A stretch of DNA of 8,031 bases from a virus (taxonomy: Duplodnaviria > Heunggongvirae > Uroviricota > Caudoviricetes), in IMG/VR virus record IMGVR_UViG_2526164690_000036, one strand, 5' to 3'. Position numbers and translations under genes: made by a program. Of the stretch, positions 7,067 through 8,031 are shown in pieces. The notes under the pieces are model-generated. The model saw nothing but the letters and a program-made list of their open reading frames with translations, was not told the origin of the DNA and ran no database searches. How positions within the stretch are numbered: position 1 is the first letter of the stretch; the number at the start of each line of letters is the position of its first letter.

Positions 7067-7142
7067 GGCCCTTTAGCTCAGTGGTGAGAGCGAGCGACTC
7101 ATAATCGCCAGGTCGCTGGTTCAAATCCAGCAAGGGCCACCA
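7067..7142 (+). tRNA. ileZ: tRNA-Ile2 (anticodon CAU, lysidine type), ileX/ileZ-like
   Basis: Cloverleaf folded by hand: acceptor GGCCCTT/AAGGGCC, D-stem GCTC/GAGC, anticodon loop CTCATAA, T-loop TTCAAAT, encoded CCA. About 90% identical to E. coli ileX as recalled and unlike elongator tRNA-Met. Confidence 0.8.
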
Positions 7143-7149
7143 TCACATA

Positions 7150-7226
7150 CCGCCATTAGCTCATCAGGAAAGAGCGCCAGCTTTCGAAGCTGGTTGCGCG
7201 GAGTTCGGGTCCCCGAAGGCGGTCCA
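7150..7226 (+). tRNA. argN: tRNA-Arg-like (anticodon UCG inferred), non-canonical features, argN-like position
   Basis: Hand fold: acceptor CCGCCAT/AAGGCGG with one A.A mismatch, D-stem GCTC/GAGC, anticodon stem CCAGC/GCTGG with loop TTTCGAA, T-arm CGGAG-TTCGGGT-CCCCG with one mismatch and G at the usual A58, encoded CCA. Confidence 0.55.
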
Positions 7227-7239
7227 TTATCTGTATCCT

Positions 7240-7316
7240 GCGTTGTTAGCTCAGCCGGACAGAGCAATTGCCTTCTAAGCAATCGGTCACTGGTTCGAAT
7301 CCAGTACAACGCGCCA
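7240..7316 (+). tRNA. argO: tRNA-Arg (anticodon UCU, reads the rare AGA codon), argO/argU-like
   Basis: Hand fold: acceptor GCGTTGT/ACAACGC, D-arm TAGCTCAGCCGGACAGAGCA, anticodon loop CTTCTAA, T-loop TTCGAAT, discriminator G, encoded CCA. Resembles E. coli argU. Confidence 0.85.
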
Positions 7317-7330
7317 CACTTATTTTCCCT

Positions 7331-7356
7331 GGCTCGCTTTTGCGGGCCTTTTTTTT
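7331..7356 (+). terminator. Rho-independent terminator after the tRNA cluster
   Basis: Stem GGCTCGC (7331-7337), loop TTTT, stem GCGGGCC (7342-7348, one G.U pair), followed by T8 (7349-7356). Confidence 0.65.
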
Positions 7357-7552
7357 AAATGTCTCACAATTCAGGCGGTTGACTGTTGTCTGGTTTGCGG
7401 GGAGTTTGTTAAAAGAAACTGGCATGGTGAATCCCCCTGTGCGGAGGGGCAATCAGCGAGTAGGTATATGGGATAATCGCGGATTCAGGTGCTGGTACTG
7501 AATTCACCGGGAGGCACCCGGCACCATGCAATGGCACATAGCGCCACTCTCC

Positions 7553-7578
7553 AGCCCCTCTCCGGAGGGGCTTTCTTA
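7553..7578 (+). terminator. Hairpin with T-rich tail (terminator-like), plus strand
   Basis: 8-bp stem AGCCCCTC/GAGGGGCT with loop TCCG (7553-7572), followed by TTCTT. Confidence 0.35.
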
Positions 7579-7583
7579 TGGAC

Positions 7584-7612
7584 AAAAAAAGCCCGCGCAG
7601 GGAGACGCGGGC
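7584..7612 (-). terminator. Rho-independent terminator-like hairpin reading on the minus strand
   Basis: On the minus strand: stem GCCCGCG, loop TCTCCCTG, stem CGCGGGC, followed by T7 (seen as A7 at 7584-7590 on the plus strand). Confidence 0.4.
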
Positions 7613-7805
7613 GGCAAGGAATAAACAACAAAACGTGAAGTAATATTTCAGCTGGCGAATAATATCCGACAGTAATCACTCTGCGCAATAGCGCGGCCTT
7701 TTTCGTATTGCGGGCTGTTGTCTCTCTTCTGCCATTGTCCTGTAACTTCCGGACTTCAGCCCGCTCCTCATTTTACTCACAATATTATCCCGGCCGGGAG
7801 GATTC

Positions 7806-8031
7806 ATGGCATTTAAACACTATGATGTTGTCAGGGCGGCGTCGCCGTCAGACCTTGCGGAAAAGCTGACACACAAACTGAAAGAGGGCTGGCAGCCATA
7901 CGGCGGACCGGTTGCCATTACGCCGTACACACTGATGCAGGCGGTGGCTATTGAAGGAGATCCACAGGTCGGCCCTTCATCTAAGCCGGACTGGTTCTAC
8001 GTGGTTGTGCTTGCCGGACAGTCCAACGGCA
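7806..8031 (+). CDS. nanS-p-like prophage 9-O-acetylsialate esterase, N-terminal part (DUF1737 region running into the SASA GQSN motif); 3' end outside window
   Basis: ATG 7806 is preceded by a GGGAGGA ribosome-binding site. The frame stays open to the window end and translates MAFKHYDVVRAASPSDLAEKLTHKLKEGWQPYGGPVAITPYTLMQAVAIEGDPQVGPSSKPDWFYVVVLAGQSNG. GQSN is the SASA/SGNH esterase nucleophile motif. Absent from the ORF track because it has no stop within the window. Confidence 0.7.
   Translation, partial: MAFKHYDVVRAASPSDLAEKLTHKLKEGWQPYGGPVAITPYTLMQAVAIEGDPQVGPSSKPDWFYVVVLAGQSNG

What the first reader, a model, noticed from the sequence alone, without database searches (positions are those of the whole stretch)
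7067..8031. Stx-phage-like late-region layout (Q ... tRNA-Ile/Arg/Arg ... nanS-p) with an empty toxin slot
The order of Q antiterminator, a three-tRNA rare-codon cluster and a nanS-p-like esterase gene matches the architecture around stx in Shiga-toxin phages (ileZ-argN-argO, then stxAB, then nanS-p, as I recall for 933W-type phages). Here the interval between the last tRNA and the esterase (7317-7805) holds no ORF of meaningful size, only terminator-like hairpins, so this is an stx-negative relative. The cargo has instead accumulated upstream of the tRNAs (CPBP gene, IS10, regulator pair).
Basis: partly seen in the sequence, partly recalled or inferred. Interest (0 to 1): 0.5.

Follow-up and report, generated by a model that had tools for sequence, protein, structure and literature searches.

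The report
Toxin-free Shiga-type prophage late region
This is the already well-described late-gene stretch of a Shiga-toxin-type prophage that lacks the toxin genes (almost base-for-base prophage Sp4 of E. coli O157:H7 Sakai).

Summary
The features are real. There are three tRNA genes at 7067-7316: ileZ with a CAT anticodon, argN with TCG and argO with TCT. A Q antiterminator lies 3.7 kb upstream, and a nanS-p esterase gene starts at 7806, not 7807. No stx sequence is present anywhere in the window.

Window 7040-8031 differs by one base from prophage Sp4 of E. coli O157:H7 Sakai. There the same genes are annotated ileZ1, argN1, argO1 and ECs1088.

- **The toxin slot is a point, not 490 bases.** Homology to Stx2a phage 933W and to an Stx2c phage breaks at 7357 and resumes at 7360. 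In 933W a 1332-bp stx2 cassette sits between those two positions.
- **The rest of the gap is not empty.** It is the conserved region found downstream of stxB in Stx phages. It holds a plus-strand STnc100-family sRNA at 7393-7583 (Rfam 138 bits), which is EcOnc05 of Sakai. It also holds a convergent minus-strand Hfq-bound RNA, EcOnc08/21. Published northern probes for both match the window exactly.

The contiguous empty junction occurs in 1037 of 5426 complete E. coli genomes. The upstream regulator is the known psrA. This is ordinary, already known biology.

The parts
3018..3398 (+). Q antiterminator gene (ECs1084-like)
   Evidence: PF06530 at 174.5 bits. 79% identical to 933W Q over 121 aa. 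Homology to 933W ends at the Q C-terminus, so the 933W PR'/qut sequence is not present here.
3550..4366 (+). CPBP/CAAX-protease family gene (ECs1085-like), split in this window by two 1-nt deletions
   Evidence: The intact L001 copy matches PF02517. The window lacks one T in each of two T8 runs, at 3699 and 4019, relative to Sakai and O111:H11.
4504..5832 (-). IS10 insertion, absent from Sakai Sp4
   Evidence: 9-bp direct repeat CGCATAGCT at 4495-4503 and 5833-5841, spaced 1338 bp. RNA-OUT match at 97 bits at 5718-5787. The Sakai sequence is continuous across the site.
6325..7038 (+). AraC-type regulator gene, psrA (ECs1087)
   Evidence: HTH_18 and HTH_AraC Pfam matches. Window 5833-8031 has a single mismatch to Sakai Sp4, and that mismatch is at 7067, outside this gene. 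ECs1087 of Sp4 is named psrA in PMC13502914.
7028..7056 (+). Promoter-like site in front of the tRNA genes (equivalent of 933W 'pT')
   Evidence: TTGATT-17-TATTAT, 9 of 12 matches. It lies at the position that 933W annotates as the putative tRNA promoter pT, L002 3083-3111. Function was not tested.
7067..7142 (+). ileZ, tRNA-Ile2 type (anticodon CAT)
   Evidence: ARAGORN and Rfam. 76/76 identical to 933W ileZ and 68/76 to K-12 ileX, with one compensated stem change. Annotated tRNA-Ile by PGAP and in Sakai.
7150..7226 (+). argN, tRNA-Arg (TCG), a structurally weakened copy
   Evidence: ARAGORN. Rfam gives only 42.9 bits against 54.8 for the 933W copy. The cloverleaf shows an A6/A67 mismatch, an A/C mismatch in the T stem and G instead of A at T-loop position 58.
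7240..7316 (+). argO, tRNA-Arg (TCT)
   Evidence: ARAGORN and Rfam at 70.1 bits. Differs from 933W argO only at position 37, A against G.
7331..7357 (+). Intrinsic terminator after argO
   Evidence: GGCTCGCTTTTGCGGGCC followed by T8. Conserved with the 933W feature annotated 'possible rho-independent terminator upstream of the stx genes'.
7357..7360 (.). Unoccupied stx insertion point
   Evidence: 933W matches window 7064-7357 (L002 3118-3412) and then 7360 onward (L002 4745 onward), with 1332 bp of stx2AB cassette in between. The breakpoints are the same in Stx2c_2409. In a 60-record sample spread down the ranking of 303 matching phage records, every listed Stx2 phage match stops at 7354-7357.
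7393..7583 (+). STnc100-family sRNA gene (EcOnc05 of Sakai Sp4; homologue of EcOnc27/sRNA103; related to PasD)
   Evidence: RF02076 at 138 bits, E 3e-31. The consensus fold of 6 homologues has compensatory changes in 8 of 42 pairs. The EcOnc05 probe matches exactly at 7451-7485. The Hfq CRAC peak maps to 7454-7562 and the northern band is ~222 nt, which would put the 5' end near 7360; that is an inference. The terminator is at 7553-7572 plus a U-rich tail.
7585..7749 (-). Convergent minus-strand Hfq-bound RNA (EcOnc08/EcOnc21), ending at the terminator 7612..7591 plus T7
   Evidence: Minus-strand terminator GCCCGCGTCTCCCTGCGCGGGC followed by T7. The Hfq peaks map to 7586-7658 and 7664-7749, and the northern band is ~271 nt. 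The probe matches exactly at 7658-7692. The 5' end is not mapped. The best promoter-like site is 7812..7784.
7681..7705 (+). Hairpin followed by a T-run (terminator-like) ahead of the nanS-p leader
   Evidence: CTGCGCAATAGCGCGG followed by CCTTTTT. Conserved in 933W, phi296 and Sp15.
7806..8031 (+). 5' part of nanS-p (ECs1088-like sialate O-acetylesterase gene); runs off the window
   Evidence: DUF1737, E 3.8e-17. The full gene in the near-identical O111:H11 genome is 616 aa with DUF1737 + SASA + DUF6645 and is followed by lysis genes. The window ends in the GQSNG motif at the start of the SASA domain.

Best explanation
The interval is part of the late-operon 'moron' region of an Sp4-type lambdoid prophage that carries no stx. 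It is a backbone sibling of Stx2 phages.

From left to right it contains:
- a promoter-like site;
- the rare-codon tRNA genes ileZ, argN and argO;
- their intrinsic terminator;
- the unoccupied point where Stx2 phages carry the stx2AB cassette (7357|7360);
- a convergent pair of Hfq-binding small RNA genes, plus-strand STnc100/EcOnc05 and minus-strand EcOnc08/21;
- a conserved leader and the nanS-p esterase gene, followed outside the window by the lysis genes.

How it probably works (inferred):
- In the lysogen, the tRNAs and the two sRNAs are made from their own promoters. The tRNAs decode AUA and AGA/AGG, which the neighbouring prophage genes use heavily. The sRNAs bind Hfq and act on host or prophage mRNAs by base pairing; their targets are unknown.
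- On induction, Q-modified RNA polymerase reads from the late promoter through all the terminators in this stretch into nanS-p and the lysis genes.

Shown here: the identity of every part, the junction, the absence of stx and how common the junction is. Taken from the literature, on a sequence identical here: Hfq binding and the northern bands.
For: - **Identity to Sp4.** Window 7040-8031 has one mismatch to Sakai Sp4, which has the same gene order and annotation.
- **tRNAs.** They align to 933W ileZ/argN/argO.
- **Junction.** It is the same against 933W and against an Stx2c phage.
- **No stx.** There is no stx remnant.
- **Plus-strand sRNA.** STnc100 match at 138 bits, with a conserved and compensated structure.
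- **Position of the sRNA pair.** STnc100 followed by a convergent AsxR occupies the same position in 933W.
- **Literature.** Tree et al. 2014 describe convergent Hfq-bound sRNA pairs at the moron site 3' of PR' in Sp3, Sp4, Sp5, Sp9, Sp10, Sp11, Sp15 and Sp17. They list EcOnc05, EcOnc08 and EcOnc21 in Sp4, and their probes match the window exactly.
- **Esterase and lysis genes.** nanS-p domains and downstream lysis genes are present.
- **Codon use.** The prophage genes use AUA at 9.7 and AGA+AGG at 11.1 per 1000 codons; psrA uses 29 and 25. From general knowledge, not computed here, the E. coli genome averages are about 4-5 and 3-4.
- **Frequency.** The contiguous junction is present in 1037 of 5426 complete E. 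coli genomes.
Against: - No transcription start site is mapped here for either sRNA. The plus-strand promoter candidates are weak; the best is TTGCGG-19-CACAAT. The plus-strand RNA could therefore be processed from a longer transcript.
- The late promoter and qut site were not located. The sequence after Q is unrelated to 933W PR'.
- The argN copy has three structural defects and may not be functional. CGA codons are not enriched.
- Expression and Hfq-binding data come from strain Sakai, not from the source of this window.
- The functions of EcOnc05 and EcOnc08/21 are unknown.
Confidence: 0.9

Rival explanations
1. One reading: 7317-7805 is a vacated, functionless toxin slot that contains only terminator hairpins.
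For: No ORF there matches any Pfam family. Four terminator-like hairpins are present.
Against: - Positions 7360-7805 are homologous to the region downstream of stxB in Stx2 and Stx1 phages, so they are not the slot.
- 7393-7583 is an STnc100-family sRNA at 138 bits, with compensatory base-pair changes.
- Both strands give Hfq-bound RNAs in Sakai on an identical sequence.
Confidence: 0.03
2. This prophage descends from an Stx2 phage that lost the stx2AB cassette by a precise deletion, rather than representing a backbone that never carried it.
For: - argO plus its terminator (7240-7354) are 100% identical to those of several Stx2c phages.
- Q is 79% identical to 933W Q.
- The junction coincides exactly with both cassette ends.
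Against: - No stx remnant or scar is present.
- The sRNA region is only about 70% identical to the 933W and Stx2c versions, so the two flanks have different histories.
- The empty junction is far more widespread (1037 genomes) than a recent loss would suggest.
- Lambdoid phages exchange modules freely, so the direction of change cannot be read from these data.
Confidence: 0.15
3. The plus-strand RNA is not an independent gene. It would be the processed or terminated 3' tail of tRNA-operon or late-operon read-through.
For: - No good sigma-70 promoter lies between 7317 and 7393.
- The ~222-nt northern size would put the 5' end at about 7360, directly after the tRNA terminator (this is an inference).
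Against: - In Stx phages the same RNA lies downstream of stxB, with different upstream sequence, and is still detected as EcOnc27 at ~235/247 nt.
- Phages without the tRNAs carry the same block starting at about 7352.
- The block has its own conserved structure and terminator.
Confidence: 0.15
4. The short ORFs in the gap encode small proteins. PGAP calls a 'hypothetical protein' pseudogene on the minus strand at about 7412-7537, and there is a 49-aa ORF at 7489-7638.
For: Annotation pipelines place hypothetical proteins here in many genomes and phages.
Against: - None of these ORFs matches a Pfam family.
- They overlap a structured RNA whose helices show compensatory substitutions that preserve base pairing.
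- PGAP itself flags its call as partial or pseudo.
Confidence: 0.03

Closest known systems
Prophage Sp4 of E. coli O157:H7 Sakai (ECs1082-ECs1088, ileZ1-argN1-argO1)
   Same: Same genes in the same order. Window 5833-8031 has 1 mismatch to Sp4, and 423-4503 is 98.9% identical. Same sRNA loci EcOnc05, EcOnc08 and EcOnc21.
   Different: - The window has an IS10 inserted at 4504-5832 and another IS10 end at 1-422.
- It has two 1-nt deletions in the CPBP gene.
- It has G rather than A at the first base of ileZ.
- After ECs1088, Sakai Sp4 has an IS629 and rearranged lysis genes. The O111:H11 relative keeps the holin-lysozyme-Rz order.
stx2 region of phage 933W / Sp5 (Q - ileZ argN argO - stx2AB - EcOnc27/AsxR - nanS-p (L0105) - S R Rz)
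   Same: - Same order of Q, the three tRNAs, the post-argO terminator, an STnc100-family sRNA, a convergent minus-strand sRNA, nanS-p and the lysis genes.
- The tRNA block is 93% identical, and the nanS-p leader and start are 91% identical.
   Different: - No stx2AB; 1332 bp are missing at 7357|7360.
- The sRNA block is only about 71% identical.
- The minus-strand partner is not AsxR.
- The sequence after Q (PR'/qut in 933W) is unrelated and is followed by 2.3 kb of extra genes, not counting the IS10.
STnc100 (Rfam RF02076) / EcOnc27 = sRNA103 / EcOnc05, EcOnc06 / PasD
   Same: Full-length match above the gathering score, the same multi-hairpin fold inside a long closing helix plus a terminator, and a position just upstream of an esterase gene.
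   Different: The window copy has a shorter variable hairpin, so it is 191 nt against the 206-nt model, and it scores lower than the 933W copy (138 against 208 bits). Targets are unknown. The reported effects of EcOnc27 on fimZ and espA come from overexpression only.
AsxR / AgvB prophage anti-sRNAs (RF02703, RF02702)
   Same: Same position and convergent orientation relative to the STnc100-type sRNA. Ends at a minus-strand intrinsic terminator and is Hfq-bound.
   Different: No covariance-model match in the window at E <= 1. The 3' region has a different sequence. The RNA is much longer, ~271 nt against 51-60 nt. No sponge activity is known for it.
NanS-p prophage sialate O-acetylesterases (933W L0105 / z1466 family)
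   Same: DUF1737 N-terminal domain, SASA catalytic domain and a C-terminal domain. Located downstream of the stx position and upstream of the lysis genes, and known from non-Stx prophages too.
   Different: 616 aa here against 645 aa in 933W. The C-terminal part matches DUF6645. Only the first 75 residues lie inside the window.

Membership tests
Stx-converting phage | Carries stxA and stxB | tested here: not met
   blastn-short of 7317-7805 against the stx2 and stx1 cassettes, and tblastn of the four Stx subunits against the whole window. All matches have E >= 0.12.
933W-type Stx-phage late-region layout | Order: Q, then ileZ-argN-argO, then nanS-p, then holin/endolysin/Rz | tested here: met
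   Q at 3018-3398, tRNAs at 7067-7316 and nanS-p from 7806. Lysis genes follow in the O111:H11 genome, which matches 423-8031 apart from two 1-nt gaps in the CPBP gene.
933W-type Stx-phage late-region layout | PR'/qut/tR' directly after Q | tested here: inconclusive
   Homology to 933W stops at the end of Q. Only weak promoter-like sites were found at 3459-3531 and no adjacent terminator. The late promoter was not located.
ileZ-argN-argO phage tRNA cluster | Sequence alignment to the 933W genes and the same anticodons | tested here: met
   ileZ is 76/76 identical. argO differs at one base (position 37). argN has the same anticodon with several substitutions. The block 7064-7357 is 93% identical overall.
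ileZ-argN-argO phage tRNA cluster | All three fold as intact cloverleaves | tested here: inconclusive
   ileZ and argO are intact. argN has an A6/A67 mismatch, an A/C mismatch in the T stem and G58, and scores 42.9 bits against 54.8 for 933W.
tRNA-Ile2 (CAU anticodon read as AUA after lysidine modification) | CAT anticodon together with an ileX-like body rather than a tRNA-Met body | tested here: met
   68/76 identical to K-12 ileX, including C4-G69 and C5-G68. That these two pairs are TilS determinants is from general knowledge. PGAP calls the gene tRNA-Ile.
tRNA-Ile2 (CAU anticodon read as AUA after lysidine modification) | Lysidine at position 34 and charging with isoleucine | not testable with these tools
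   Needs biochemical analysis.
STnc100 sRNA (RF02076) | Covariance-model score above the gathering threshold over the full model | tested here: met
   138 bits against a gathering score of 47, model positions 1-206, E 3e-31.
STnc100 sRNA (RF02076) | Conserved secondary structure supported by compensatory changes | tested here: met
   RNAalifold on 6 homologues gave 42 pairs, 8 of them with changes on both sides that keep the pair. The sample is small.
STnc100 sRNA (RF02076) | Expressed as a discrete Hfq-bound RNA | not testable with these tools
   Literature only: EcOnc05 in Sakai Sp4 (CRAC peak and a ~222-nt northern band), on a sequence identical to the window.
AsxR/AgvB anti-sRNA family | Conserved ~42-nt 3' region (Rfam RF02703 / RF02702) | tested here: not met
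   No match in the window at E <= 1. The same search method finds AsxR in 933W at 88 bits.
AsxR/AgvB anti-sRNA family | Convergent partner of the STnc100-type sRNA at the moron site | tested here: met
   A minus-strand terminator at 7612..7591 lies directly after the plus-strand sRNA terminator. The EcOnc08/21 peaks and probe map to this position.
NanS-p | DUF1737 N-terminal domain | tested here: met
   Window residues 3-49, E 3.8e-17.
NanS-p | SASA esterase domain and a C-terminal domain | tested here: met
   Found in the full-length gene of the near-identical genome: SASA at residues 66-262 and DUF6645 at 467-577. Inside the window only the first ~10 SASA residues are present, including GQSNG.
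NanS-p | 9-O-acetyl sialate esterase activity | not testable with these tools
   Needs an enzyme assay.

The most novel reading that the evidence does not exclude
The uncharacterised minus-strand Hfq-bound RNA (EcOnc08/21, ~271 nt) may start at or inside the nanS-p start region and run antisense through the unusually conserved nanS-p leader. It would then act in cis as a lysogen-phase brake on nanS-p and late-operon expression, in addition to or instead of acting in trans. That would give the 'sRNA dyad' found at this site in many EHEC and EPEC prophages a mechanistic role. The evidence permits this reading but does not test it:
- The Hfq peaks cover 7586-7749 on the minus strand.
- The homologous EcOnc42 peak in Sp15 lies antisense to the first ~80 nt of the esterase gene.
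- The best minus-strand promoter-like site overlaps the nanS-p start codon.
Probability: 0.2. Interest if true: 0.35.

Novelty: already known. Interest (0 to 1): 0.12.

Why it matters
It matters little as a discovery. The locus is a near-exact copy of a prophage region annotated since the Sakai genome, and its small RNAs were catalogued in 2014.

It is useful as a correction. Non-coding gaps next to the stx position in lambdoid prophages are not empty. They carry Hfq-binding sRNA pairs that are multicopy in EHEC and EPEC. In Stx2a phages the homologous stretch holds sequence variants reported to predict HUS. The exact empty junction at 7357|7360 gives a clean reference point for describing stx cassette boundaries.

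Tried and rejected
- **stx remnants.** I looked in the gap and in the whole window with short-word blastn and tblastn. Nothing beyond chance turned up.
- **AsxR/AgvB.** I tested whether the minus-strand partner belongs to this family. Rfam found no match at E <= 1, so I rejected membership.
- **Small ORFs in the gap.** I tested them against Pfam at E <= 1. There was only one sub-threshold chance hit: TrmO_N, 13.6 bits against a cut-off of 26.8.
- **Late promoter.** I tried to locate it by alignment to 933W PR'. There is no homology after Q, so this stays unresolved.
- **sRNA promoters.** I scanned both strands for promoters serving the two sRNAs. Only weak candidates appeared, so I claim no start sites.
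- **Minus-strand RNA fold.** I folded 7583-7777. Apart from the terminator it is no more stable than shuffled sequence (z = -1.06), so I make no structural claim.
- **CPBP frameshifts.** I considered whether they signal pseudogenisation. Both are 1-nt losses in T8 runs, so sequencing error is at least as likely.
- **PasD.** I did not retrieve PasD sequences, so the relation to PasD rests only on the preprint's statement.
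Full report
**What is in the window**

ARAGORN finds three tRNA genes: 7067-7142 (anticodon CAT), 7150-7226 (TCG) and 7240-7316 (TCT). Rfam's tRNA model agrees, at 72.5, 42.9 and 70.1 bits. Upstream lie these genes:
- a DUF968 gene at 1604-2653;
- rusA at 2666-3037;
- a Q antiterminator at 3018-3398 (PF06530, 174 bits);
- a CPBP/CAAX-protease gene;
- an IS10;
- a 79-aa ORF;
- an AraC-type regulator at 6325-7038.

An ORF starts at 7806 and runs off the window. Its 75 residues match DUF1737 (E 4e-17) and end in GQSNG.

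**Where it comes from**

Window 423-8031 matches the chromosome of E. coli O111:H11 strain 88.0502 except for two 1-nt gaps. In that genome the ORF at 7806 is a 616-aa SASA-family esterase (DUF1737 + SASA + DUF6645). It is followed by holin, lysozyme, Rz and terminase genes.

The same region is prophage Sp4 of E. coli O157:H7 Sakai: ECs1082-ECs1088 with ileZ1, argN1 and argO1. Window 7040-8031 differs from Sp4 at a single base, the first base of ileZ.

**The tRNAs**

- The CAT tRNA is 76/76 identical to ileZ of phage 933W. It is 68/76 identical to K-12 ileX, the tRNA-Ile(CAU) gene, with one compensated stem change.
- argO differs from 933W only at position 37.
- The argN copy looks weakened. 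It has an A6/A67 mismatch, an A/C mismatch in the T stem and G at T-loop position 58. Its Rfam score is 42.9 bits against 54.8 for the 933W copy.

A promoter-like site at 7028-7056 lies where 933W annotates its putative tRNA promoter.

The neighbouring prophage genes use AUA at 9.7 and AGA+AGG at 11.1 per 1000 codons. psrA uses 29 and 25. These rates are above the E. coli genome averages as I know them from general knowledge, which fits a rare-codon supply role. CGA is not enriched.

**The toxin slot**

Phage 933W matches window 7064-7357 at 93% (L002 3118-3412) and matches again from 7360 (L002 4745 onward). The 1332 bp in between are the stx2 promoter and stx2AB. An Stx2c phage gives the same two breakpoints. 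In a 60-record sample spread down the ranking of 303 matching phage records, every listed Stx2 phage match to argO plus its terminator stops at 7354-7357.

The insertion point is therefore a 2-base junction directly after the argO terminator (7331-7357). That terminator is itself conserved with the 933W feature annotated 'terminator upstream of the stx genes'. The Stx1 prophage Sp15 has no tRNAs here, and it shares window 7422-7913 at 88%, starting 108 nt after stx1B.

No stx-derived sequence is present in the gap or anywhere in the window. Loss and never-gained therefore cannot be told apart.

The contiguous empty junction is common. It is found in 1037 of 5426 complete E. coli genomes.

**What the 'empty' gap holds**

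*Plus strand.* Rfam finds a full-length STnc100 match at 7393-7583 (138 bits, gathering score 47, E 3e-31). The same family lies right after stxB in 933W (208 bits), and there it is followed by the convergent anti-sRNA AsxR. A consensus fold of six homologues keeps these elements, with compensatory changes in 8 of 42 pairs:
- a long closing helix;
- a CCCCC/GGGGG hairpin;
- a variable hairpin;
- two further hairpins;
- the terminator.

*Literature.* Tree et al. 2014 describe convergent Hfq-bound sRNA pairs at this moron site in eight Sakai prophages, including Sp4. Their Table S2 lists three entries for Sp4. With the offset record = window + 1172352, they map as follows.

| sRNA | Strand | Window coordinates | Northern size |
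|---|---|---|---|
| EcOnc05 | + | 7454-7562 | ~222 nt |
| EcOnc08 | - | 7586-7658 | ~271 nt |
| EcOnc21 | - | 7664-7749 | ~271 nt |

Their northern probes match the window with no mismatch, at 7451-7485 (detecting a plus-strand RNA) and 7658-7692 (detecting a minus-strand RNA).

*Minus strand.* A strong minus-strand intrinsic terminator lies at 7612..7591 followed by T7. This RNA is not a member of the AsxR/AgvB family, because neither covariance model matches at E <= 1.

*What is known about function.* The Stx2-phage homologue of the plus-strand RNA, EcOnc27 (also called sRNA103), raises fimZ and espA transcripts when overexpressed. Sequence variants in it were reported as predictors of HUS. 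A 2026 preprint relates STnc100 to the EPEC sRNA PasD and notes the association with esterase genes. No function is known for EcOnc05 or EcOnc08/21.

**Mechanism**

The parts, the junction and their distribution are shown here. Hfq binding and RNA sizes come from the literature, on an identical sequence. The following steps are inferred.
- In the lysogen, the tRNAs and both sRNAs are made from their own promoters.
- On induction, Q-modified polymerase reads through the terminators at 7331-7357, 7553-7572 and 7681-7696 into nanS-p and the lysis genes.

Weak points:
- No start site is mapped for either sRNA, and the promoter candidates are poor.
- The late promoter was not found, because the sequence after Q is unrelated to 933W PR'.

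**The cargo upstream of the tRNAs**

The Q-to-ileZ distance is 3.67 kb here against 0.44 kb in 933W.
- The AraC-type gene is psrA (ECs1087), a known prophage regulator of type III secretion and the GAD system.
- The IS10 at 4504-5832 is a simple, strain-specific insertion with a 9-bp target duplication. Sakai lacks it.

**Verdict**

The description of the gap as an empty slot with only hairpins is wrong. Everything here is already described in the literature and in genome annotation. Interest is low.

Noticed in passing
window 7150-7226: The argN (tRNA-Arg TCG) copy, shared with Sakai Sp4, has an acceptor-stem A/A mismatch, a T-stem A/C mismatch and G instead of A at T-loop position 58. It may be a decaying tRNA gene.
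   Followed up: partly
window 7067: The only difference from Sakai Sp4 across 7040-8031 is the first base of ileZ. It is G here and in 933W, pairing with C72, and A in Sakai ileZ1, giving an A/C mismatch.
   Followed up: yes
window 7725-7886: The nanS-p leader, ribosome-binding site and first ~27 codons are almost invariant between this prophage, 933W and phi296. The flanks on both sides diverge. The stretch overlaps the best minus-strand promoter-like site, 7812..7784.
   Followed up: partly
window 1-422 and 4504-5832: Two IS10 copies lie in inverted orientation with their inside ends facing each other, a Tn10-like arrangement. They bracket hok/sok, the DUF968 gene, rusA, Q and the CPBP gene. 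The left copy is 98.4% identical to the right one over 426 nt. It is absent at this site from the closest complete genomes, in which the match starts at 423.
   Followed up: partly
window 3699 and 4019: The CPBP/CAAX-protease gene (ECs1085) is broken into three frames by two single-T deletions in T8 runs, relative to both Sakai and O111:H11. This could be sequencing error or slipped-strand inactivation.
   Followed up: yes
window 6325-7038: [quoted passage not shown]
   Followed up: yes
window 832-1156: A hok/sok-type type I toxin-antitoxin locus. The sok RNA matches at 107 bits at 832-1006 and a Hok-family ORF lies at 944-1156, annotated hokD in the matching genome.
   Followed up: no
window 1165-1246: A weak, sub-threshold match to the Salmonella prophage sRNA IsrK (27 bits against a gathering score of 50, E 0.01), just after the hok locus. 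Phage phi296 has a full IsrK match at 78.6 bits in its nin region.
   Followed up: no
L005 (phage vB_EcoS-640R1) 1889-2116 and 2369-2577: This phage carries two tandem STnc100-type copies between a single CAT tRNA and the DUF1737 gene, together with an IraM-like anti-adapter gene. Other cargo can therefore occupy the same region.
   Followed up: partly
L003 (phage phi296) about 5265-5295: This stx-negative Traversvirus has a 28-nt insertion exactly at the 7357|7360 junction, between the argO terminator and the sRNA block.
   Followed up: no
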